A stretch of 64,000 nucleotides of DNA from assembly GCA_045125705.1 (NCBI GenBank), contig JBGVNQ010000020.1, positions 3,783-67,782 of the forward strand. Direction: 5' to 3'. Below are positions 1 to 45,630 of this stretch, piece by piece. How positions within the stretch are numbered: position 1 is the stretch's first letter; every line of letters begins with the position of its first letter. This DNA is from Akkermansia sp. (GTDB taxonomy: Bacteria > Verrucomicrobiota > Verrucomicrobiia > Verrucomicrobiales > Akkermansiaceae). The translations under genes were made by a program, and so were the position numbers. The notes under the pieces are model-generated. The model was not told where the DNA came from. It searched no databases and was given only the letters and a program-made list of their open reading frames with translations.

Positions 1-1402
1 CCTGCCCATCGAATACCGCGAGGGCGAGGGTCTGTATGTGTGTCTGGAAGACCCGCTGAACCCGCAGACGGTGGATGACCTGCGCATCGCCACCGGCCAC
101 GATATCTACCTGTATGTGGCTGCCGACTATGAGGTGCGCGCCCGCATCACCGAATGCTACGGTGGCGCCGAGGCCGCCATGGGTGACCTGCTCGCTGAGC
201 TCGACCACATGAGCGTGGGCAGCAATGACGGCGCAGAGGAAGCCAACGCCGCCCCTGTTATCAAGTTCGTGAACCTGGTGATTATGCAGGCCATCAAGGA
301 AAAGGCCTCGGATATTCACCTGGAGCCCTTCGAAACCGAGTTCAAGATCCGCTACCGTGTGGACGGCGCTCTGTACGAAATGGCCCCGCCCCCTGTGCAC
401 CTGGCCAACTCCGTGATTTCCCGCGTGAAGGTGATGGCCGGCATGAACATTGCCGAACGCCGCGTGCCGCAAGACGGTCGCATCGTGATGAAGGTGGGCG
501 AAGCCGGTGTGGACATGCGTGTGAACTCCCTGCCCACCCAGTACGGTGAATCGGTGGTAATGCGTGTGCTCGACCGCAACAGCGTGAGCCTCAACCTCGA
601 TAACCTGAACCTCTCCCCCCACCTGCACGAGTACATCATCGACACGGTGAACAAGCCCAACGGCATCTTCGTGGTGACGGGTCCCACCGGTTCCGGTAAG
701 ACCACCACCCTCTACGCCGCCCTGCGCGAGGTGAACACCGAGGACTCAAAGCTGCTCACCGCAGAGGACCCCGTGGAATACGACATCGACGGCATTGTGC
801 AGGTGCCCATCAACGAAGCCATCGGCGTGACCTTCCCGCGTGTGCTGCGCGCCTTCCTGCGTCAGGACCCGGACCGCATTCTGGTGGGCGAAATTCGTGA
901 CAAGGACACTGCACAGATTGCCATTCAGGCAGCTCTTACGGGTCACCTTGTGCTTTCCACCTTGCATACGAATGACGCCGCAGGCGCTGTGACGCGTTTC
1001 GTGGATATGGGCGTGCAGCCCTTCCTGCTGGCCGCCACGCTGCTCGGCGTGCTGGGTCAGCGTCTGGTGCGTACCATCTGCCCGTACTGCAAGACCCCCT
1101 ACACCCCGTCCACCTCGCTACTCACGCAGCTGGGCATCAACCCGCAGCTCATCGGCAGCCAGCAGTTCTTCACCGGCGCCCGCTGCGACAAGTGCGCCAA
1201 CACGGGCTACAAGGGCCGTAAGGGTATCCACGAGCTGCTGAACGTGACCGACCCCATCAAGGAACTCATCACGCAGAACGTGCCCTCCATCGTGCTCAAG
1301 CAGAAGGCCGTGGAGCTGGGTATGACCACGCTTCGCGAAGACGGCATCCAGAACATCTTTGAAGGCAATACCACCATCGAAGAAGTGCTGAAGTACACCT
1401 AA
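1..1402 (+). CDS. Type II secretion / type IV pilus assembly ATPase (GspE/PilB family), 5' end cut by window edge
   Basis: The frame is open to base 2. Walker A GPTGSGKTTT, Asp box/Walker B DRILVGEIRD, His box LTGHLVLSTLHTND and a C-terminal CPYC...CDKC tetracysteine are all typical of GspE/PilB ATPases. Confidence 0.9.
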   Translation, partial: LPIEYREGEGLYVCLEDPLNPQTVDDLRIATGHDIYLYVAADYEVRARITECYGGAEAAMGDLLAELDHMSVGSNDGAEEANAAPVIKFVNLVIMQAIKEKASDIHLEPFETEFKIRYRVDGALYEMAPPPVHLANSVISRVKVMAGMNIAERRVPQDGRIVMKVGEAGVDMRVNSLPTQYGESVVMRVLDRNSVSLNLDNLNLSPHLHEYIIDTVNKPNGIFVVTGPTGSGKTTTLYAALREVNTEDSKLLTAEDPVEYDIDGIVQVPINEAIGVTFPRVLRAFLRQDPDRILVGEIRDKDTAQIAIQAALTGHLVLSTLHTNDAAGAVTRFVDMGVQPFLLAATLLGVLGQRLVRTICPYCKTPYTPSTSLLTQLGINPQLIGSQQFFTGARCDKCANTGYKGRKGIHELLNVTDPIKELITQNVPSIVLKQKAVELGMTTLREDGIQNIFEGNTTIEEVLKYT

Positions 1403-21170: not shown

Positions 21171-21201
21171 AAGCCGCATTCCCCGCAAAGGAATGCGGCT
21201 T
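21171..21201 (+). terminator. Stem-loop terminator after tdh
   Basis: AAGCCGCATTCC-CCGCAAA-GGAATGCGGCTT forms a 12-bp stem, followed by CTGCTTTG. Confidence 0.6.
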
Positions 21202-21275
21202 CTGCTTTGTATGTTGGATTTTGAATTGTTGATTTTGGATGTATCAAATTCCCCGGGCATTGCCCGCCAATATTC

Positions 21276-21304
21276 TTGACTTATTACCCCCTACAAGGTA
21301 GAGT
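21276..21304 (+). promoter_or_regulatory. sigma70-like promoter TTGACT-17-TAGAGT, 6 nt before the start codon (leaderless geometry)
   Basis: Hexamers at 21276-21281 and 21299-21304; the ATG is at 21311. Confidence 0.45.
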
Positions 21305-21310
21305 ATTGGC

Positions 21311-22711
21311 ATGGATACAGATACCCGTAAGAGCGTGGCCGCGTGGTCATCGGTGATTTGGAGCGGATTCCTCGCTGCCACCAAGCTGGTGGTGGGCATT
21401 TTCACCGGCTCGCTCGGTATCTTGTCGGAGGCGCTGCACAGTGCGCTTGATTTAGTGGCTGCGGGCGGCACTGTGTTTGCTGTGAAGGTAGCTGCACGCC
21501 CTGCTGATGACGAACACCCCTACGGCCACGGCAAGGTAGAGAACCTCATGGCTCTGGCAGAAACTCTTCTGCTGCTCGCCACCGCTGCCTGGGTTATCAT
21601 GGAAGCCTGCGAGCGTCTCCTCAGCTCCGACCCTGCTGCGCTGGAGGTGAAGTTCTCCTACTGGGCATTTGCCATCGTCATCATCTCCATTGTGGTCGAT
21701 GTGAACCGTGCCGCCATGCTCAAGCGGGTAGCGCGCGAGACCCGCAGCGCCGCGCTTGAGGCCGATGCGGCCCACTTCACCACCGATATCTGGAGCAGCG
21801 CCGCCGTGCTCCTTGGTATCACCGGTGCTGCCGTTGCAGGCATGACCGTCGAGGGCAGCTGGCTGCACTGGGTGCTCATGCGAGCAGACGTCTTTGCCTC
21901 GCTCGTGGTGGCGGCGCTCATTCTCCACGTCTGCAAGGACCTCGGCAAGCAGTCCATCAACAACCTCATGGACAAATCCAACGGCGAAGCCTCCGACAGC
22001 ATCCGCAAAGCCATGGCAGAGCGCATGCCCACCTACCCGCTCTCCCGCCTCCGTGTCCGTGAATCCGGCGCCCGCTATTACGTGGATATGGAGGTACAGG
22101 TGCCGCCCAGCCTGCATGTGGATACAGCCCATGAAATCGCCGATGCCATAGAAGAGCTTGTCGCTACCACCCTGGAAGGCGCCGAGACCATGGTGCACAT
22201 GACCCCCGCCCAGTCCCTGCCCGAGACCCCCGAATTCGTCATCCGTCGCCTGGCCCTCAGCCACCGCTTCGGCGTGCACGGCCTCGTGCTTCAGCATACG
22301 GACGATGGCAAGTTCATCATCGCCGTCGACCTTGAGCTGCCCCCTGCCGCCACGCTGGAATCCTGGCAGGTCGCAGTGGAAGCCTTCCGCAAGGAAGTAC
22401 AGCGCAACCTGAATGCCGACCTTGTAGCCCTGCATGTGGAGCCCGACCTGCGCCGCGTGCCCGCCTACACCGAGCCCCTGCCCGAGGATTGGGAAGACCA
22501 GGTGCGCCAGGCCATGATACACCGCGGCGCCCCCCTGCCCAGCAGCATCAGCTGCTACACCCGCGGCCACGAGCGCCTCTGCATCATCACCATCCCCCGC
22601 GAACCCCGCCTCACCGTCGAGGAAAGCCACGCCCGCCTCACCAAGCTCAACAAGAAGCTCGCCGAGCGCCTCCCCTCCGCAGCCCGCATCATGGTGACCT
22701 ATGAGGAATGA
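21311..22711 (+). CDS. Cation diffusion facilitator (CDF) metal efflux transporter with about 170-aa C-terminal extension
   Basis: A six-TM CDF core (LSEALHSALD, HFTTD metal-site motifs) is followed by three sequential segments that look like repeats of the CDF cytoplasmic domain. Confidence 0.85.
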   Translation: MDTDTRKSVAAWSSVIWSGFLAATKLVVGIFTGSLGILSEALHSALDLVAAGGTVFAVKVAARPADDEHPYGHGKVENLMALAETLLLLATAAWVIMEACERLLSSDPAALEVKFSYWAFAIVIISIVVDVNRAAMLKRVARETRSAALEADAAHFTTDIWSSAAVLLGITGAAVAGMTVEGSWLHWVLMRADVFASLVVAALILHVCKDLGKQSINNLMDKSNGEASDSIRKAMAERMPTYPLSRLRVRESGARYYVDMEVQVPPSLHVDTAHEIADAIEELVATTLEGAETMVHMTPAQSLPETPEFVIRRLALSHRFGVHGLVLQHTDDGKFIIAVDLELPPAATLESWQVAVEAFRKEVQRNLNADLVALHVEPDLRRVPAYTEPLPEDWEDQVRQAMIHRGAPLPSSISCYTRGHERLCIITIPREPRLTVEESHARLTKLNKKLAERLPSAARIMVTYEE

Positions 22712-22933
22712 AGAGGGATATACAAACTTGCGAATTCCTCCGCCACCAGCTCACACTAGCAACGCTAGTGTTTTCATCCTCTTTTTTCACGGGTGCAATC
22801 ACTCGGTGGGGACCTTGGCGTATTTGATTTACGCTTCCGCCTCCGAGTCGCCGAGCCTCCTATTCAGCCGTCTCCGCGTCTCGCTATCGCTCGCTTGCTA
22901 CGCCATGCCAGGCTGTTCATTAATCACTAGAAA

Positions 22934-23929
22934 TCAACATTTTCCTTGCATATTCCAAAATACTTTTGCTTCCTTTCGCGTGGTGGGAGCCATGTATCGG
23001 CTGCGCAGAAGTGATAAATCCCGGTGGCCCATTTCCAGCTGCAGCTCTGGCAGGTTTCTGAAATGTGCGGCGTGGTAGCTGGCGAAAGTATGGCGGCAGA
23101 CATCCGGCACCCAATGAGTAAACCCGGCCGCACGTCGCAAAGCCAGCCAGCGGTTCTGCCAGTTTCGAGGCACGCGGCAATCCTGTGCACGCATGCCGGG
23201 CAGCGCGCGTAGAGGTACAACTCGCCCGCCGCCAGTTTTGCTGCGCTGCGGGCGGATGATGACCTGCCGCTCCTCCCAGCACACATCCTCCGGACGCAAT
23301 CGCTCTACCTCTGCAGGGCGCACGCCGCTGTATAGCAACAGACTCAGAGAGAAACTCATATCACGGAACTGTCGTTGTTCCACCACCTTGAGCAAACGGC
23401 TCACCGCATCATTGGTAAGGGGCTCTATAGGAGACTCCTGCACAGGCGGCACTTCTATACGAGCCACCGGATTCGCATTGCACCATTCCCGTCTCTGTCC
23501 GTAAGCAAAAATACTATGCAGAATAGCCCGTCCTTTGCGGTAACTATGCGCACTGTGACCAAATGCATTGTGCAGCAGTTCGCGGCATTGTCCCACCGTC
23601 ACAGCCCGCAGCGGCAACTGAGCAAAGGCCGTATGCTTCAGCATCCTACGCACATAATGCCGTAAATCACGCGTAGTCGTAGGTCTCCGCCCTGCCCGCG
23701 CCTGCACACTCTCCCACGCAGCCTGCTCAAAAGGTACCGTCCGCTCCGCTGCCTGCACAGCTGCAATCCCCTCCCTCATCACACGCCGCACCAGCTCCAT
23801 CAACTCCACCCGTGCCATCCCTTCTGCCCGCCCCCCCAGCCCCTCCACACACTCCATCACCAGCCGCGCAGCATCAACACCATCCAGCGGCACCATCGTC
23901 ATCAGTCTTTTTATCGTTTTTGTATTCAT
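22934..23929 (-). CDS. Tyrosine site-specific recombinase (phage-integrase family)
   Basis: The C-terminal catalytic region reads ...SGVRPAEV...HTFASYHAAHF...MGHRDLSLLRSRY, giving the R..H-x-x-R/H..Y pattern. Confidence 0.85.
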   Translation of the reverse strand: MNTKTIKRLMTMVPLDGVDAARLVMECVEGLGGRAEGMARVELMELVRRVMREGIAAVQAAERTVPFEQAAWESVQARAGRRPTTTRDLRHYVRRMLKHTAFAQLPLRAVTVGQCRELLHNAFGHSAHSYRKGRAILHSIFAYGQRREWCNANPVARIEVPPVQESPIEPLTNDAVSRLLKVVEQRQFRDMSFSLSLLLYSGVRPAEVERLRPEDVCWEERQVIIRPQRSKTGGGRVVPLRALPGMRAQDCRVPRNWQNRWLALRRAAGFTHWVPDVCRHTFASYHAAHFRNLPELQLEMGHRDLSLLRSRYMAPTTRKEAKVFWNMQGKC

Positions 23930-23941
23930 AGTTGTAGTTAC

Positions 23942-24120
23942 GCATTCACAAAGCTAAGTCAATGAAAAATTGCTTGCAATGACTGTTACTGTGCAGAGGT
24001 GAATGATATAACGTCACATCTTGAAGTGCGAGATAATTTATGGCAGAGGTTGCCCTTTTCTTACTTAGGATACAAACCTTTGATTTCATGCATCCTTGCA
24101 AACCTTAGCTTTGTGAATGC
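23942..24120. promoter_or_regulatory. Candidate invertible DNA switch: 145-bp segment bounded by perfect 17-bp inverted repeats
   Basis: GCATTCACAAAGCTAAG (23942-23958) and CTTAGCTTTGTGAATGC (24104-24120). The segment lies between the divergent recombinase gene (start 23929) and membrane-protein gene (start 24137). Confidence 0.6.
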
Positions 24121-24136
24121 TGTATATTCATGATGC

Positions 24137-25510
24137 ATGACGGGTATCAATCGCATAATTAACAAACACTTACCGGAAATTGCGGTTGGTTGTTTAATGT
24201 TGTCAATGGTGGTCTCTCAGTTCTCCTACTTCTGTGATAGAACGGTATTCGGGCATGATGATTTATCTCAGATAGGGACATATTGCTGGAATTTGGAGAC
24301 AGAAGGGAGGTGGCTGATATATCTGCTATTTGACGTGTTACGGTATTTTAATACACATGTGGCATTGGTTGCAGACTTCGGGTTTATTGGTATTTTTGGA
24401 TATCTGTGCGCTAGAAAATGGTTAAATTCAGGCCAAAGTATACTAATTGCATTGCTGGTAATGCTGACTCCATCTGTGGTGCTGTTTCTTGATTGGCCAA
24501 TCATCGCCATGCCTTCCATGTTTCTACTGGCGATTGCCTCGCTGGTGTGCAAAAGAATGCCTCTCTGGCTATTTTTCTTGCTTTTCGGTATACTATTTAA
24601 TGCAACATTCAGTAATGTGTACTTCCTGTTACCGCTATTGTTTTTGAATGAGAATTCCAGAACATTGTTGCGTGTCGTGCTCTTCTGGATTGCGGGTTTT
24701 GTGATAGGTTTTGCTATTGCAGAGCTGATTACATATATTATTTGTGGGCATTTTATTGAACTTGGAGAGTGGAGAAAGCCCAATTATATAAGAAGCTTGT
24801 CGGATATTTCGACGAATGTTCTAACAGCGCTGGGATTTGCCTCTAGACACATACGTTATATGGGGAAAGTATGTGGATTTACAGGATTTCTGTGCGTTGT
24901 ATTATTTGCATGGACGCACAGGAATAATAAAATACAAGGTCTTACAATGCTTCTGGTTATGGGGTTAGTTGCCATGAGCTGTTATGCACAAAGTATTCCT
25001 GCTGGCATAGATGTGTCTATGAGAACAGCCCATTGCTTATATTTTTCCTTGATTTTATTTGTTTTGGTAAGTTGCAGGGTCAATCGTTTTCTTCTTCTGT
25101 CCTTGGTTTTGATATGGAGTGGAAGAAGCCTGAATATGAATGCAAGAAATTTAGAATGGCAAAACACAATCAGAAGTTCGTTCAGAGATGGCATTGCTAG
25201 CATTGGAGTTTCTCCTGTTGAGGTAAACGGACTTGTTATGTTAGCTGATGATAATGATGTGTATGAAATAGTAAAGTCAATCGAAGGCTCGTCTCACACA
25301 TCGAGCTATGATTTAATAATGAATCTGGATTCTTGGGCCGCCGCTCCCCGATACGAGGGGTTTAAATCTTTATGGTATCGAAAAGGAGCCGAAGAAAAGC
25401 TTAAGGAACTGGAGATTAAGGAAAATGATTTAGCTTTTACAACAAGAGGCATATACAGTTTTGCGTTATGCAAAGGTTATCTGTTCATTCGCCTCAATAC
25501 GCCCAGATAA
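24137..25510 (+). CDS. Polytopic membrane protein, low GC (GT-C/Gtr-type glycosyltransferase or polymerase-like topology; function uncertain)
   Basis: About 10 hydrophobic helices fill the first 330 aa or so, followed by a soluble tail of about 125 aa. The gene is AT-rich: 25 G+C in the 60 nt at 24241-24300, against 38 in 20281-20340. Confidence 0.55.
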   Translation: MTGINRIINKHLPEIAVGCLMLSMVVSQFSYFCDRTVFGHDDLSQIGTYCWNLETEGRWLIYLLFDVLRYFNTHVALVADFGFIGIFGYLCARKWLNSGQSILIALLVMLTPSVVLFLDWPIIAMPSMFLLAIASLVCKRMPLWLFFLLFGILFNATFSNVYFLLPLLFLNENSRTLLRVVLFWIAGFVIGFAIAELITYIICGHFIELGEWRKPNYIRSLSDISTNVLTALGFASRHIRYMGKVCGFTGFLCVVLFAWTHRNNKIQGLTMLLVMGLVAMSCYAQSIPAGIDVSMRTAHCLYFSLILFVLVSCRVNRFLLLSLVLIWSGRSLNMNARNLEWQNTIRSSFRDGIASIGVSPVEVNGLVMLADDNDVYEIVKSIEGSSHTSSYDLIMNLDSWAAAPRYEGFKSLWYRKGAEEKLKELEIKENDLAFTTRGIYSFALCKGYLFIRLNTPR

Positions 25511-25801
25511 GCGCGCAGTGCAAGATTTTTTCATAAAATATCGGTCATTGAAGAAAAACAAGGCATCCTGAATATATAGCTTAACGACGTTCTCGGTGCC
25601 CCGCCTTGCGAAGCCTAGCTCAAATAGCGTGATTCATAACATTTTTTAGAAAAACGAAATGTTCATCAGATTTTTCAATACAAAGGCTACAAAAGATCGA
25701 TGCAGGGTACTCCTCCTTATAGGAATTCCTAAATATTCTGCATTACCACTGAACGCATGCCTTAACTTCCATCCTAAATATGCTAAATACAGAAGCACAG
25801 C

Positions 25802-26863
25802 ATGTCTCCCACTGAACAACGGCTATTTTCCGCCTCTCAAATAGCTAAGGCTGGAAGCATTTTGCGCGACACCTCATCAACTGCGGATAAGGTGGGGTGG
25901 GCGTTCGGGATGCTGGATAACTTCCGCGCGCTGCACGTGGAGCCGCTGAATGTATTCCAGAACACGCTGAGAGCCCGTCTGAAGAAGCTAGGGCTGAGTG
26001 ATGCGATTGTGGCGCAGCGTATTAAGCGAAAGCCGACTATTCTGGAGAAGCTGCAGCGGTTCCGCTCGATGCGACTTGACCAGATGGATGATATTGGTGG
26101 GATTCGCGCGATTGTAAGCAGTATTGCGGAGCTGAAGGAGCTGCGAAAACTTTATACCGCAGGTTCGCACAAATTGCTGCATGAATTGCAGCGTGAGGAT
26201 GATTATATTGCCTCCCCCAAGGACTCCGGATACCGAGGTGTACATCTGGTTTTCCGTTACCAGACGAATAAGGAGGATAAGGCCGGGTACAATGGGCTGC
26301 GCATTGAAATGCAGCTGCGTACCCAGCTACAGCACACATGGGCTACCGCGGTGGAAACTTTTGAGGCTTTCATGGGCGAGAAGTTCAAATCCAGTCAGGG
26401 CGCACAGGAGTGGCTTGATTTCTTTGCCTTGGTGGCAAGTGCTTTCGCGCTCAAGGAAAAGCAGACTCCACTTCCCGCGCACAAGAATTTGACGAAGCAG
26501 GAACTTGCCCGCCGGATTAAGCAGCAGGCAAATGATTTGCAAGTGGGCCTCATGATGAAGAGTTTCTCGCTGGCTGCCAATAACCTGGCACCCAGCTACC
26601 GTCAGAAGGGCGGTCTGGCCCTGATGATTTTCGACAGTGTCACTAAGTCTGCCAATGTTACGGTTTACCCGAAAGATAAATACGAACAGGCATACGAAGC
26701 CTATGTCCGCGAAGAACAGCGCAGTAGCCAGGAAAGCACTCGCCAGGTTGTGCTGGTAAAGATGGATTCCATCCAGAAGCTGGAGAAGGCGTACCCCAAC
26801 TACTTTGCCCGGCTCAAGGATTTCCAGACGGAGTTGAAACACATCTTCGCGTGGTGCTCGTAA
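25802..26863 (+). CDS. Stand-alone RelA/SpoT-domain nucleotide pyrophosphokinase (small alarmone synthetase / toxSAS-like) with C-terminal extension
   Basis: Synthetase-fold motifs DDIGGIRAIV, DSGYRGVHLVFRY and IEMQLRTQLQHTWATAVE. There is no HD, TGS or ACT domain. Confidence 0.8.
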   Translation: MSPTEQRLFSASQIAKAGSILRDTSSTADKVGWAFGMLDNFRALHVEPLNVFQNTLRARLKKLGLSDAIVAQRIKRKPTILEKLQRFRSMRLDQMDDIGGIRAIVSSIAELKELRKLYTAGSHKLLHELQREDDYIASPKDSGYRGVHLVFRYQTNKEDKAGYNGLRIEMQLRTQLQHTWATAVETFEAFMGEKFKSSQGAQEWLDFFALVASAFALKEKQTPLPAHKNLTKQELARRIKQQANDLQVGLMMKSFSLAANNLAPSYRQKGGLALMIFDSVTKSANVTVYPKDKYEQAYEAYVREEQRSSQESTRQVVLVKMDSIQKLEKAYPNYFARLKDFQTELKHIFAWCS

Positions 26864-26919
26864 GTTGCTTTTCTTTTAGCAAAGACGAGGCTCTGCTGAT
26901 TATTTCTCTCATTTCCTGA

Positions 26920-26947
26920 TTGACTGAGGCTCTGAGTATGTTATAAT
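26920..26947 (+). promoter_or_regulatory. Strong sigma70-like promoter TTGACT-16-TGtTATAAT (extended -10)
   Basis: -35 at 26920-26925, TG at 26939-26940 and -10 at 26942-26947. The -10 overlaps the first ATG of the long ORF, which favours the ATG at 26964 as the true start. Confidence 0.5.
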
Positions 26948-26963
26948 GTGCGTTCATAGGGGT

Positions 26964-27197
26964 ATGAATAACCACCCCGGGTTAGAAACAGTGGACGACG
27001 ATATCATTTGCACAGAGAAAATCATTGCTGACCGCAAGACCTTTTTCATTGACCTGAAGAGCAACGCCCGTGGGCGTGTGGTGCGCATCACCGAAAAGGT
27101 AAGCTCGAACCGTGACCGCATCATGGTTCCTGCAGAAATCCTGGACGATTTCATTGCCGCGCTGGAGGATATCCGCCGCGCCAATAACGAGCATTGA
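26964..27197 (+). CDS. PUR-alpha-like (DUF3276-type) nucleic-acid-binding protein
   Basis: FFIDLKSNARGRVVRITEK...RDRIMVPAEILDDFIAALEDI fits a single PUR repeat (beta-sheet followed by a helix). Confidence 0.6.
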   Translation: MNNHPGLETVDDDIICTEKIIADRKTFFIDLKSNARGRVVRITEKVSSNRDRIMVPAEILDDFIAALEDIRRANNEH

Positions 27198-32007: not shown

Positions 32008-32530
32008 AGCCATACGAGAGGAAGCGACAGCCCTCTCTCCGTATATGGGCTAGGCCGCCCTGTTTTTATGGATAAGTCCATCCCCGACAAATCGGGAATT
32101 GGCGAAGCGATGGCGAGCGGAATTTCAGAGCCCACGAAAGTGGGCGACATAATCGTAGCGAAGGCCGTCAGGCCCTCGTTCTCAACAAAAATAAGACCCG
32201 AGCCCGCGTCTGCGGGCGGCATAATGCGTGGCCAAGAGGAATATCTCGGCAATGCAAATGACCGTTAATTCAATACCGATATACATTGAAATCGATACGG
32301 TTTCGTATTGCGACTCTTTATGCCGCCCGTTGAAACGGGCTCCTATATTTCTTTGATGTAATCGAGGGGTTACGCACGCCCCGCCTCAGCGGGGCGGCTC
32401 CACCCCATCGCTACGATTATACCGCCCTTCGGGCTCAAAATTCCGCAGGCTGTGCCTGCTCGACAAACTCGGATTTCTCTCTGCTGCTAAATTATACAAA
32501 TGAGTACACTTTCGCTGCCCTGATTTTACC

Positions 32531-43993: not shown

Positions 43994-44022
43994 TTGAGTG
44001 CACGGCGGAACTATGTTAGAAT
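43994..44022 (+). promoter_or_regulatory. sigma70-like promoter TTGAGT-17-TGtTAGAAT, 6 nt before the start codon (leaderless geometry)
   Basis: Hexamers at 43994-43999 and 44017-44022, TG at 44014-44015. The menD ATG is at 44029. Confidence 0.45.
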
Positions 44023-44028
44023 CCACGC

Positions 44029-45630
44029 ATGATTAGTGAGAAGCCTGTGGTGCAGGAACTGGTGGCGCTGATGCTGGCGCATGGGGTAACAAGAGCTGTG
44101 CTTTGCCCCGGAAGCCGCAACTCTCCCATCGTGGCCACGCTGGCCGCCTGTGCAGACGTGGAATGCCGCAGCGTGACCGATGAACGCAGCGCAGGATTTG
44201 TTGCTCTTGGCTGGGCGCAGCAGGCACAGGCGCCTGTGGCGGTGGTGGTTACCTCCGGCAGCGCTGTGCTGAATGTGCATCCTGCTGTAGCAGAGGCATA
44301 CTATCGCAAAACTCCTCTGCTAGTCATTTCTGCAGACCGCCCTGCTTCATGGATTGGCCAGAACGATGGCCAGACCCTGCCCCAACCCGGAGTTTTCGGT
44401 TCACTTGTGCGCTTTTCCGCACAAGTGCCGGAGGAGGACGCCTGGCACGCCAACCGAATCATCAACGAGGCATTGCTGGAACTGAGCCATCGCGGAGGCG
44501 GCCCGGTGCACCTGAACATCCCCCTTACCGAGCCGTTTTTCGGCATGGTAGAAGAAACACTGCCCGTGGTGCGAGTCATTAAGCGCACTGAAGCAGCCCG
44601 CATGAATGCCGATGAGGAAGAAGCACTGCTGGAGGAAGCCTCTGCGCTGCCACGCAGGCTGATTCTGCTTGGCCAGCAATCCGCCCCTTCCCTCATGCTC
44701 GCTAAGCTGGCGGCGGATAAGCAATTTGCCGTGGTGGGTGAACACATTGCCAACGCTCCCTTTGCCGACTGCAACCGCCCAGATGTCCTGCTGGGCAATA
44801 ATCCGGATGCAGCCAGGAGTCCCGATTTGCTCATTACCTGCGGCGGTGATGTCATCTCGAAACGGCTGAAAAAGCTTCTGCGCAGCAATCCACCCAAGGC
44901 TCACTGGCACATCTCTGCCGATGGCGAAGTGGTGGACAGCTTCTGTGCGCTTACCCGGGTACTGGAAGGCGACCCGGAGGAATTCTGGGATTTGCTGGCA
45001 GCTTTCGCCGAAGAAGGAGACGATACCTACCGCACACGCTGGCAGACTGAACCGGCCTCATTTCAGGAGGATGAATTCTGCGGCATGAAGTTCGTGGGAG
45101 AGCTGATGAAGAATCTGCCCGCCGGCAGCGTGCTGCACCTGGGCAACAGCTCAGCCGTGCGCTACGCCCAGCTTTTCCCCATGCCCCAGGGGATACAGGT
45201 GGAATGCAACCGTGGAGTCAACGGTATTGAAGGCAGTGTGTCTGCCGCCGCCGGACATGCCATGGCAACACCGGATAAGCTCCATTTCCTTATCATCGGC
45301 GATTTAAGCGTATTTTACGATTTAAACGGTCTGCTCATGGCTCAGCAATGTCCCAATCTGAGAATTCTTTTACTGAACAACCAGGAAGGCGGCATCTTTG
45401 GCACCCTGCCCGGCATGCCGGATTGCCCCCAGATACGGGCGCCGCATGGCGAGAGCATCATGGGCTGGTGCGGGTGCAATTTCCGCTGCAGGCAGGTGCT
45501 CATTGAATTCCACTGGGAAGAAGCACTGAAAGTACTGCTTTCTACAGAGCCCGAACCGGTACTGGTAGAGCTTTTCACCGAAACGAGGCAGGATGCCGCC
45601 ATTTTGAAAAACTTTTACACGAATATCTGA
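44029..45630 (+). CDS. menD: 2-succinyl-5-enolpyruvyl-6-hydroxy-3-cyclohexene-1-carboxylate synthase (ThDP enzyme)
   Basis: N-terminal [10 protein letters not shown], a ThDP motif [12 protein letters not shown]...NN, and genomic context with menB and menC. Confidence 0.85.

What the first reader, a model, noticed from the sequence alone, without database searches (positions are those of the whole stretch)
23930..24136. Candidate invertible promoter switch between a tyrosine recombinase and a low-GC membrane protein gene
Perfect 17-bp inverted repeats GCATTCACAAAGCTAAG (23942-23958) and CTTAGCTTTGTGAATGC (24104-24120) bracket a 145-bp AT-rich spacer. The unit fills nearly the whole divergent intergenic region: IRL lies 12 nt from the recombinase start (23929, minus strand) and IRR 16 nt from the 457-aa membrane protein start (24137). 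On the minus strand, the spacer end abutting IRL reads TTGA|CT, giving TTGACT, a near-consensus -35. If the spacer is flipped, that TTGA moves next to IRR. The result would be TTGACT-17 nt-TATATT(24123-24128)-8 nt-ATG(24137). This is the same -35/17/-10/very-short-leader geometry seen at fixed promoters in this window (21276-21311 and 43994-44029). In the orientation present here the corresponding position reads AAACCT, which is not a -35. The assembly would therefore be phase-OFF for the membrane protein. In this orientation the TTGACT faces the recombinase gene, but only a poor -10 (TAACTA) follows it. The overall layout matches fim-type and Bacteroidales-type invertons. The split -35 model is my inference.
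Basis: partly seen in the sequence, partly recalled or inferred. Interest (0 to 1): 0.8.

Follow-up and report, generated by a model that had tools for sequence, protein, structure and literature searches.

The report
Invertible promoter switch for an Akkermansia surface-glycan gene
A 145-bp piece of DNA between a recombinase gene and a membrane glycosyltransferase gene of an Akkermansia gut bacterium occurs in nature in both orientations. Flipping it appears to complete or break the gene's promoter, so this is a real but fairly conventional on/off switch for a cell-surface sugar modification.

Summary
Perfect 17-bp inverted repeats (23942-23958, 24104-24120) flank a 145-bp spacer between a divergent tyrosine recombinase gene and a 457-aa low-GC membrane protein gene.

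A public metagenome scaffold (L033) is about 99% identical over window 21172-27058. It carries exactly this spacer reverse-complemented (144/145), with both repeats intact.

The flipped allele reads TTGACT-17-TATATT-8-ATG. A promoter scan finds this site in L033 and nothing in the window allele.

The host is an Akkermansia species. The recombinase, repeats and membrane gene form a cassette in at least five further lineages and at least five genomic contexts. In these lineages:
- The two repeat arms change sequence together.
- The spacer length stays at 145-148 bp in the five closer lineages.
- TTGA(C/T) lies just inside the recombinase-side repeat.
- TAnnnT lies 6-9 nt before the ATG.

One lineage without the recombinase is frozen in the ON-like form.

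The membrane protein is most likely a GtrC-like GT-C glycosyltransferase.

Akkermansia invertons are already published. This one has a different repeat core, its own adjacent recombinase, and a promoter split across the recombination site. Transcription, reversibility within a strain and dependence on the recombinase are untested.

The parts
22934..23929 (-). Tyrosine site-specific recombinase gene (331 aa), the presumed invertase
   Evidence: PF00589 at E 4.8e-14. It aligns to XerD and XerA. R, K (SKTGGGR), R (CRHTF), H (GHRD) and Y (LLRxRY) are invariant in 7 lineages. Asp replaces the usual His-II (A3). The gene is always divergently adjacent to the repeat, 0-25 nt away.
23942..23958 (.). 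Left inverted repeat (IRL), recombination site
   Evidence: Perfect 17-bp repeat. It is intact in the flipped natural allele L033. Its sequence co-varies with IRR across lineages.
23959..24103 (.). 145-bp invertible segment
   Evidence: L033 carries it reverse-complemented (144/145) with breakpoints at the repeats. Its length is 145-148 bp in six lineages despite about 40-60% sequence divergence.
23957..23962 (-). Mobile -35 hexamer TTGACT. TTGA comes from the segment and CT from the repeat. In this allele it faces the recombinase gene.
   Evidence: Read from the sequence. GTCAA/ATCAA at this position is the only invariant block of the spacer in six lineages. In L033 it sits 17 nt upstream of TATATT.
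24104..24120 (.). Right inverted repeat (IRR). In the ON state it forms most of the 17-nt spacer between -35 and -10.
24123..24128 (+). Fixed -10 hexamer TATATT, outside the invertible segment and 8 nt before the start codon (leaderless or near-leaderless mRNA predicted)
   Evidence: TAnnnT lies 6-9 nt before the ATG in all recombinase-linked lineages. The same geometry occurs at other gene starts of the window.
24137..25510 (+). Regulated gene: 457-aa polytopic membrane protein, probable GtrC-like GT-C glycosyltransferase with a C-terminal soluble domain
   Evidence: AF2 model with pLDDT 91. Foldseek top hits are ALG12, ALG9, PimE and AglB. HDD 40-42 and EGRW 56-59 are invariant or nearly so. 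One homologue is fused to a GtrA domain. Homologues sit next to GT2 genes and in a polysaccharide locus.

Best explanation
This is a phase-variation switch (inverton) of an Akkermansia species.

Proposed mechanism:
- The adjacent tyrosine recombinase (22934-23929, - strand) recombines the two 17-bp inverted repeats and flips the 145-bp segment between them.
- The segment carries only one functional promoter part, a -35 element (TTGA plus CT supplied by the repeat) at one of its ends.
- The -10 element (TATATT, 24123-24128) is fixed outside the right repeat, 8 nt before the start codon of the membrane protein gene.
- In the window's orientation the -35 points at the recombinase gene, and the membrane gene has a -10 without a -35. 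This is the predicted OFF state.
- After inversion the -35 lands exactly 17 nt upstream of the -10, with the repeat itself serving as the promoter spacer. This gives TTGACT-17-TATATT-8-ATG and a leaderless or near-leaderless transcript. This is the predicted ON state.
- The regulated product is most likely a GtrC-like GT-C glycosyltransferase that decorates a surface glycan on the periplasmic side. The switch would then create subpopulations with different surface sugar structures, relevant to phage and immune evasion.

Shown: the repeats; both orientations in nature; conservation and co-variation of the repeats; the conserved geometry; the recombinase fold and catalytic residues.

Inferred: that this recombinase does the flipping; that flipping is reversible within a strain; that transcription depends on orientation; the biochemical role of the membrane protein.
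For: Both orientations exist.
- L033 (ENA ERZ28633703, scaffold_6980) matches the window at 991/1000 in the left flank and 1381/1400 in the right flank.
- Its spacer is 144/145 identical to the reverse complement of the window's spacer, and both repeats are intact.
- Window, L001, L004 and L005 of the same lineage have the other orientation.
- Contig L010 begins exactly at the first base of the IRR sequence shared by both orientations, as expected for an assembly-graph break in a mixed population.

The repeats are under selection.
- Of 14 core columns, 7 vary among five lineages.
- In 5 of those 7, both arms carry the same base in every lineage.
- Mismatches between arms are confined to outer positions 2-3.

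Recombinase linkage.
- The recombinase, repeats and membrane gene are found together in window, L002, L006/L023, L018, L026 and L011, in at least five different genomic contexts.
- Recombinase and membrane protein diverge in parallel: 72/79, 57/67, 54/47, 56/43 and 36/32 % identity.
- Catalytic R-K-R-H-Y are invariant.

Promoter model.
- GTCAA/ATCAA just inside IRL is the only invariant spacer block.
- The predicted ON promoters are TTGACT-17-TATATT (window), TTGACT-17-TAGATT (L002), TTGACA-17-TAGATT (L006), TTGACT-17-TACAAT (L018) and TTGATT-17-TATTCT (L026). Each lies 6-9 nt before the ATG.
- The consensus scan finds no promoter in the window allele and exactly this one (10/12) in L033.
- L022 has no recombinase and only one repeat copy. 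It reads TTGACT-18-TATACT-7-ATG, a frozen ON form.
- L027 has a homologous gene behind a different (published-type) repeat with the same -35-inside, -10-outside layout.
- The leaderless geometry is used elsewhere in the window. 7 of 11 motif hits open ORFs of at least 100 aa against a 23% baseline (P = 0.0045). 5 of 11 long-ORF starts with a TAnnnT 5-9 nt upstream also have TTG at 16-18 nt, against a 4.5% background.

Known background: Akkermansia has many experimentally supported invertons (PMC13343947, PMC11892184, PMC10028968).
Against: - No read-level data. The two orientations come from different samples or strains that are about 99% identical, so reversibility within a clone is not shown.
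- 20 of 21 assembled alleles across about 7 lineages are in the predicted OFF orientation. Such a strong bias is unexpected for a freely switching element.
- No transcription data. The promoter assignment rests on an E. coli-type consensus applied to a Verrucomicrobiota genome.
- No conserved promoter for the recombinase was found in either orientation.
- The recombinase has Asp where most family members have the second catalytic His.
- 33%-identical relatives are ordinary prophage integrases next to tRNA-Leu.
- The function of the membrane protein rests on weak fold matches (TM 0.39, E 0.013) and on context. It has no Pfam, NCBIfam or PDB sequence match.
Confidence: 0.72

Rival explanations
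1. The inversion is real, but its regulatory logic differs from the split -35 model. The switch might mainly control the recombinase gene (autoregulation). It might carry a complete promoter or a terminator inside the segment. It might set two expression levels rather than ON and OFF.
For: - In the window allele a second candidate, TTGCAA-17-TAGCTT on the - strand, reads through IRL toward the recombinase.
- A terminator-like hairpin lies at 24042-24054 inside the segment.
- The -10 alone, preceded by TG, might give basal transcription.
- The strong bias toward one orientation could mean that this state is the useful one.
Against: - The TTGCAA-17-TAGCTT candidate and the hairpin are not conserved in L002, L006, L018 or L026. 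The hairpin is no longer called in L033.
- No -10 at the right distance exists on the recombinase side in L006, L018 or L026.
- The only invariant spacer block is the TTGA(C/T) at a fixed distance from the repeat.
Confidence: 0.12
2. The adjacent recombinase is the integrase of a small mobile two-gene cassette. The inversion is catalysed by another, trans-acting Akkermansia invertase.
For: - The cassette sits in at least five different genomic contexts.
- More distant relatives (33%) are prophage integrases beside tRNA-Leu.
- In L027 a homologous gene is switched by a published-type repeat with no local recombinase.
- The window repeat resembles that published-type repeat in sequence.
Against: - The repeat core changes with the recombinase lineage, while the recombinase gene stays 0-25 nt from IRL in every lineage.
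- No direct repeats or att-like ends of a cassette were seen.
- The lineage that lost the recombinase (L022) has also lost the second repeat and is fixed in one state.
Confidence: 0.1
3. The two orientations are a fixed difference between strains, caused by a rare past inversion between chance or relic repeats. There is no ongoing phase variation.
For: Only one flipped assembly among 21, and no within-sample evidence other than one contig break (L010).
Against: - The arms co-vary across lineages.
- Spacer length and promoter geometry are conserved.
- The recombinase is intact and under purifying selection.
- The breakpoints fall exactly at the repeats.
- Invertons with similar 17-bp repeats and about 157-bp segments flip in A. 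muciniphila (PMC11892184, PMC13343947).
Confidence: 0.06

Closest known systems
Published Akkermansia invertons (Jiang et al. 2019 motif CGGATT..AATCCG; 'group 138' of PMC11892184; the cps1 capsule inverton of PMC13343947)
   Same: - Same genus.
- Intergenic promoter-type inverton with 17-bp repeats and a segment of about 125-160 bp, placed in front of a cell-surface gene.
- The repeat plus flank shares TACGC..TTC..AA..TAAG|TCAA with a published-type repeat found upstream of a homologous gene (L027).
- L027 shows the same -35-inside, -10-outside layout.
   Different: - The repeat core is different: GCATTCACAAAGCT, with no CGGATT or AATCCG.
- The published class has about 30 copies per genome and no recombinase assigned in the papers read. 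This one is a single copy with its own adjacent recombinase, and the repeat core co-varies with that recombinase.
- The A. muciniphila reference genome did not turn up as a carrier of the membrane gene family.
E. coli fimS switch with FimB/FimE
   Same: [quoted passage not shown]
   Different: - fimS is 314 bp with 9-bp repeats and carries the whole promoter (own knowledge).
- Here only the -35 appears to move, the repeat forms the promoter spacer, and the mRNA is predicted to be leaderless.
- There is one recombinase rather than two.
Bacteroides fragilis local tyrosine invertases (Tsr family) and their adjacent invertible promoters
   Same: A gut commensal in which a divergent recombinase gene lies next to its own inverton and controls surface molecules (own knowledge; compare the invertase-inverton links in PMC11892184).
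   Different: - Different phylum, promoter type and repeat motifs.
- Bacteroides invertons carry a complete Bacteroidetes promoter inside the segment.
Phase-variable gtr (O-antigen glucosylation) operons of Salmonella
   Same: Phase-variable expression of a GT-C type, polyprenyl-phosphate-sugar-dependent glycosyltransferase that modifies a surface polysaccharide (gtr phase variation is mentioned in PMC11868660).
   Different: - Salmonella gtr switching is epigenetic (Dam/OxyR; own knowledge), not a DNA inversion.
- No gtrA or gtrB lies next to the window gene.
- Homology to GtrC is not shown. The support is fold-class similarity, a GtrA fusion in a distant family member, and GT2 neighbours.

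Membership tests
Recombinase-operated invertible promoter (inverton) | Short DNA segment bounded by inverted repeats in an intergenic region | tested here: met
   17-bp perfect repeats with a 145-bp spacer fill the divergent intergenic region.
Recombinase-operated invertible promoter (inverton) | Both orientations occur, with breakpoints at the repeats | tested here: met
   L033 compared with window, L001, L004 and L005: 144/145 identity to the reverse complement, with flanks about 99% identical. The alleles come from different samples. Co-occurrence within one sample is not shown, apart from the L010 contig break.
Recombinase-operated invertible promoter (inverton) | A site-specific recombinase that catalyses the inversion | tested here: inconclusive
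   An adjacent PF00589 recombinase has conserved R-K-R-H-Y and co-varies with the repeats. Catalysis itself cannot be tested here.
Recombinase-operated invertible promoter (inverton) | Orientation-dependent transcription of a flanking gene | not testable with these tools
   Sequence-level support only. A promoter is called in the flipped allele and not in the window allele, and the geometry is conserved.
Published Akkermansia inverton class (IR motif CGGATT..AATCCG) | Repeats containing the CGGATT / AATCCG motif | tested here: not met
   The window repeat GCATTCACAAAGCTAAG lacks the motif. It matches the L027-type repeat only at 13 of 16 positions. L027 itself does carry CGGATTCCG/CGGAATCCG. 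The motif is as quoted in PMC13343947.
Tyrosine recombinase / phage integrase family (PF00589) | Catalytic pentad/hexad R-K-H-R-H/W-Y | tested here: met
   R204, K231, R279, H302 and Y312 are invariant in 11 sequences. His-II is replaced by an invariant Asp276, so five of the six positions are canonical.
GT-C fold glycosyltransferases (GtrC-like) | Polytopic membrane domain with the GT-C fold | tested here: inconclusive
   The AF2 model has pLDDT 91. Best PDB matches are ALG12 and ALG9 (prob 0.99, E 0.013-0.018, TM 0.39), then PimE and AglB. There is no Pfam, NCBIfam or PDB sequence match.
GT-C fold glycosyltransferases (GtrC-like) | Conserved acidic residue(s) in the first extracytoplasmic loop after TM1 | tested here: met
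   In H40-D41-D42, D41 is invariant and H40 nearly so. The motif directly follows helix 2-33. That this loop is catalytic in GT-C enzymes is own knowledge.
GT-C fold glycosyltransferases (GtrC-like) | Association with a polyprenyl-phosphate-sugar supply (GtrA flippase, GtrB-type GT2) | tested here: inconclusive
   Family member P0284 is fused to a GtrA/DPMS domain. A GT2 gene lies directly downstream in L027 and L028. No such genes lie next to the window copy.
Wzy/EpsG-type polysaccharide polymerases | Match to EpsG or Wzy profiles | tested here: not met
   Only 1 of 21 family members gives a sub-threshold EpsG hit (E 3.6e-4). The window protein gives none.

The most novel reading that the evidence does not exclude
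The locus may be one example of a portable, self-contained phase-variation cassette. It would combine a dedicated tyrosine invertase with a minimal switch in which only the -35 hexamer moves, the recombination site doubles as the promoter spacer, and the target mRNA is leaderless.

Three observations fit this reading:
- The recombinase family is far larger than the membrane protein family: more than 1,300 homologues against 21, all named members coming from uncultured Akkermansia.
- The repeat resembles the published Akkermansia repeat.
- L027 shows the same split layout.

The split-promoter design could therefore be the general principle of Akkermansia invertons. This recombinase family could include the still-unassigned invertase(s) that flip the roughly 30 published invertons per genome.
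Probability: 0.3. Interest if true: 0.7.

Novelty: new variant of a known kind. Interest (0 to 1): 0.55.

Why it matters
Akkermansia is being developed as a therapeutic gut bacterium. Its surface variability affects mucus association and probably phage and immune interactions (PMC13343947).

Its invertons are catalogued, but none of the papers I could read assigns them a recombinase. This locus offers a simple, testable pair: one recombinase and one site. The repeat looks related to the general Akkermansia class.

The design is also compact. A 145-bp segment contributes only a -35, and the recombination site acts as promoter spacer in front of a leaderless gene. That could serve as a minimal genetic switch.

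The locus also predicts a phase-variable glycan modification in non-muciniphila Akkermansia species.

Tried and rejected
- **Metagenome scan.** I scanned metagenome contigs with a degenerate flipped-junction pattern. The flipped allele was later found through the recombinase's nearest homologue.
- **Exact look-up of the window recombinase.** It is not on record.
- **L022 upstream region.** I tested it against forward and reversed spacers of eight loci. Nothing scored above shuffled controls. L022 therefore supports the ON-type junction only through the TTGACT-site-TATACT arrangement.
- **N-terminal extensions of homologues (P0005, P0010) as signs of flipped alleles.** They are gene-caller over-extensions in the usual orientation.
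- **Known RNA families and tRNAs in the window.** None found.
- **Sequence searches of the membrane protein.** Pfam, NCBIfam, PADLOC, PHROGs and PDB sequences gave nothing. The viral fold library gave only uncharacterised proteins.
- **TTCGGAATCCG matches in viral loci.** They lie inside integrase coding sequence and are coincidental.
- **Other invertons of the published type in the window.** None found.
- **Jiang et al. 2019.** The paper could not be read. What their Akkermansia 'promoter motif' looks like is unknown to me, which limits the novelty claim for the split promoter.

Full report
**1. Observation**

The sequence is exactly as described. GCATTCACAAAGCTAAG (23942-23958) and its reverse complement (24104-24120) flank 145 bp. 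This is the longest perfect inverted repeat with a 40-700 nt spacer in the 64-kb window. The 17-mer occurs nowhere else even with two mismatches, and none of 100 dinucleotide-preserving shuffles gave two matches.

The unit fills the divergent gap between two ORFs. One is a 331-aa ORF on the minus strand (22934-23929). The other is a 457-aa ORF on the plus strand (24137-25510) with about 39-40% GC, in a region of about 55-62% GC.

**2. The flanking genes and the host**

The minus-strand gene is a tyrosine recombinase.
- It matches PF00589 at E 4.8e-14.
- It aligns to XerD and XerA.

The plus-strand gene has no Pfam, NCBIfam, PADLOC or PHROG match.

Relatives in GTDB genomes are titled Akkermansia sp.. 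Cluster members of recombinase homologues are also from uncultured Akkermansia. Neighbouring genes are ordinary chromosome genes: a cation efflux protein, aspartate carbamoyltransferase, glycogen synthase, GH57 and an ankyrin protein.

**3. Direct test of inversion**

The closest homologue of the recombinase (P0022, 99% identity) lies on an ENA metagenome scaffold, L033 (5,885 bp). L033 is collinear with window 21172-27058.
- Flank identity is 991/1000 on the left and 1381/1400 on the right.
- Both 17-bp repeats are intact.
- The 145 bp between them are 144/145 identical to the reverse complement of the window's spacer and 46/145 to the forward sequence.

Four other assemblies of the same lineage (window, L001, L004, L005) have the window's orientation.

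A MAG contig of a sister lineage (L010) starts exactly at the first base of the repeat sequence shared by both orientations. A de Bruijn graph would break there if both orientations were present in the sample. This is suggestive only.

**4. Comparative evidence that the repeats are functional**

The membrane protein family is small in the word-indexed search, with 21 clusters. In six Akkermansia lineages the gene is preceded by the same layout of recombinase, repeat, spacer of about 129-148 bp, and repeat. These lineages are window, L002/L009, L006/L023/L010, L018, L026 and L011. The layout sits in at least five different chromosomal contexts.

The repeat sequence differs between lineages, but the two arms change together.
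- Of 14 core columns, 7 vary among five lineages.
- In 5 of those 7, both arms carry the same base in every lineage.
- Differences between arms are confined to outer positions 2-3.

The spacer is 145-148 bp in six lineages although its sequence is about 40-60% diverged.

The recombinase and the membrane protein diverge in parallel. The recombinase keeps R, K, R, H and Y invariant, and an invariant Asp replaces the usual second His.

**5. Promoter model**

In an alignment of the whole intergenic region, the only invariant block inside the spacer is TCAA (mostly GTCAA) directly inside the recombinase-side repeat. On the other strand this reads TTGA(C/T). Outside the other repeat every lineage has CTGTA and a TAnnnT hexamer 6-9 nt before the ATG.

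Flipping each lineage in silico gives these promoters, each 6-9 nt before the ATG:

| Lineage | Predicted ON promoter |
|---|---|
| window | TTGACT-17-TATATT |
| L002 | TTGACT-17-TAGATT |
| L006 | TTGACA-17-TAGATT |
| L018 | TTGACT-17-TACAAT |
| L026 | TTGATT-17-TATTCT |

The consensus scan finds no promoter in window 23700-24400. In the flipped natural allele L033 it finds exactly TTGACT-17-TATATT, matching 10 of 12 positions.

Two natural variants fit the model.
- L022 has no recombinase, one repeat copy and an IS110 transposase upstream. It reads TTGACT-18-TATACT-7-ATG, a frozen ON-type junction.
- L027 has a homologous gene without a local recombinase. It has a different 20-bp repeat containing CGGAATCCG/CGGATTCCG, which is the published Akkermansia motif as quoted in PMC13343947. 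It shows the same arrangement of GTCAA inside and TAACAT outside.

The short-leader geometry is used elsewhere in this genome.
- 7 of 11 hits to TTGNNN-16..18-TANNNT-5..9-ATG open ORFs of at least 100 aa, against a 23% baseline (P = 0.0045).
- 5 of 11 long-ORF starts with such a -10 also have TTG at the right spacing, against a 4.5% background. The 24137 gene is one of those with a -10 but no -35.

On the recombinase side no -10 lies at a usable distance in L006, L018 or L026. The -35 therefore has no conserved partner in the window's orientation.

**6. The regulated gene**

An AlphaFold model built on the 21-sequence alignment is confident (pLDDT 91, pTM 0.88). It shows a polytopic helical domain plus a C-terminal alpha/beta domain.

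The best PDB fold matches are GT-C glycosyltransferases:
- ALG12 and ALG9 (probability 0.99, E 0.013-0.018, TM 0.39);
- PimE;
- AglB.

This is weak but consistent. The H40-D41-D42 motif directly follows the first helix, and D41 is invariant. GT-C enzymes carry catalytic acidic residues at this position (own knowledge).

A profile search of 1.84 billion representatives finds 442 relatives. One of them (P0284) is fused to a GtrA/DPMS transmembrane domain. In L027 and L028 the family gene is followed by a GT2 gene. In L028 it sits among pyruvyl transferases and an acyltransferase.

The most likely role is a GtrC-like, polyprenyl-phosphate-sugar-dependent decoration of a surface glycan. A Wzy/EpsG-type polymerase is less well supported, with one sub-threshold EpsG hit in 21 members.

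**7. Comparison with what is known**

Akkermansia invertons are established.
- About 32 with one repeat motif occur in A. muciniphila ATCC BAA-835, for example 17-bp repeats around 157 bp (PMC11892184).
- Akkermansia has the highest count of intergenic invertons per genome among the phyla surveyed (PMC10028968).
- A cps1 capsule inverton has been verified experimentally (PMC13343947).

None of the papers I could read assigns a recombinase to them. I could not read Jiang et al. 2019.

The window's repeat lacks the published motif. Even so, its repeat plus flank shares TACGC..TTC..AA..TAAG|TCAA with the L027 repeat, so the two classes look related. The recombinase family is large, with more than 1,300 hits at E < 1e-10. 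Its 33%-identical relatives are prophage integrases next to tRNA-Leu.

In mechanism the locus works like fimS/FimBE and like the local Tsr invertases of Bacteroides. It differs in that only the -35 appears to move and the recombination site forms the promoter spacer.

**8. Open points**

- 20 of 21 assembled alleles are in the predicted OFF orientation.
- The recombinase's own promoter is not identified. A window-specific candidate, TTGCAA-17-TAGCTT, is not conserved.
- Reversibility within a strain, orientation-dependent transcription and dependence on the recombinase remain to be tested.

**9. Verdict**

This is a genuine inverton of a known general kind in a genus known for them. Three features are specific to it: a cis-encoded recombinase that co-varies with its repeat, a split promoter, and a GtrC-like target gene. 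These make it a useful but not startling variant.

Noticed in passing
window 25802-26863 (+): A 353-aa RelA/SpoT-domain protein lies directly downstream of the phase-variable gene. It matches the PADLOC phage-defence candidate PDC-S33 over its full length (E 5.9e-112) and phrog_4773. It is present in window, L001 and L033 but absent at the same place in L002 and L004, so it is a variable insertion. Whether it is co-transcribed from the switchable promoter is unknown (291-nt gap).
   Followed up: partly
window 32149-32420: Nested perfect inverted repeats lie in a gap of about 540 bp upstream of an 824-aa ORF (32579-35053). The outer pair is ATAATCGTAGCGA (13 bp, 246 between). The inner pair is CGGGCGGCATAA (12 bp, 93 between). 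Several GC-rich hairpins surround them. There is no Rfam match. It could be another invertible or structured element.
   Followed up: no
window 21311, 35123, 44029, 48566 (+); 43932, 60793, 62355 (-): Gene starts are preceded by TTGNNN-16..18-TANNNT with only 6-9 nt to the ATG. This suggests that leaderless or near-leaderless mRNAs are common in this Akkermansia genome.
   Followed up: partly
window 22934-23929 (recombinase), residue D276: The whole recombinase subfamily (11 sequences, 36-87% identical) has an invariant Asp (PDVCRH) where XerD has the catalytic His-II.
   Followed up: partly
L027 5930-6092: A second inverton-like pair lies in the same Akkermansia contig. The arms are ATCGCATTTTCTATGCGATG and its complement with one mismatch (20 bp, 123 between). 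It sits in the divergent gap upstream of a 623-aa gene and has a different repeat sequence and a long leader.
   Followed up: no
L022 534-749 and 998-2128: An IS110-family transposase gene is preceded by nested 22-bp and 17-bp inverted repeats. It lies about 370 bp upstream of the frozen ON-type promoter in the lineage that lacks the recombinase.
   Followed up: no
P0284 (distant family member, 596 aa): A GtrA/DPMS transmembrane domain (residues 22-132) is fused to the membrane protein family domain (164-489). This is a domain-fusion hint that the family works with a polyprenyl-phosphate-sugar flippase.
   Followed up: partly
L034-L044, e.g. L042 2496-2579 and 3001-3975: Relatives of the recombinase at 33% identity sit at the ends of IMG/VR viral contigs next to a tRNA-Leu gene. 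They are ordinary prophage integrases.
   Followed up: partly
window 26920-26947 (+): A near-consensus promoter TTGACT-16-TATAAT with an upstream TG (11/12) overlaps the annotated start of the 83-aa PurA-like ORF (26946-27197). The true start of that ORF is probably further downstream.
   Followed up: no
window 24042-24063 (+), inside the invertible segment: A terminator-like hairpin GGCAGAGGTTGCC is followed by CTTTTCTT. A weakly conserved GCTTTCC block lies at the same place in relatives. One base difference in L033 removes the hairpin call. Its function is unknown.
   Followed up: partly
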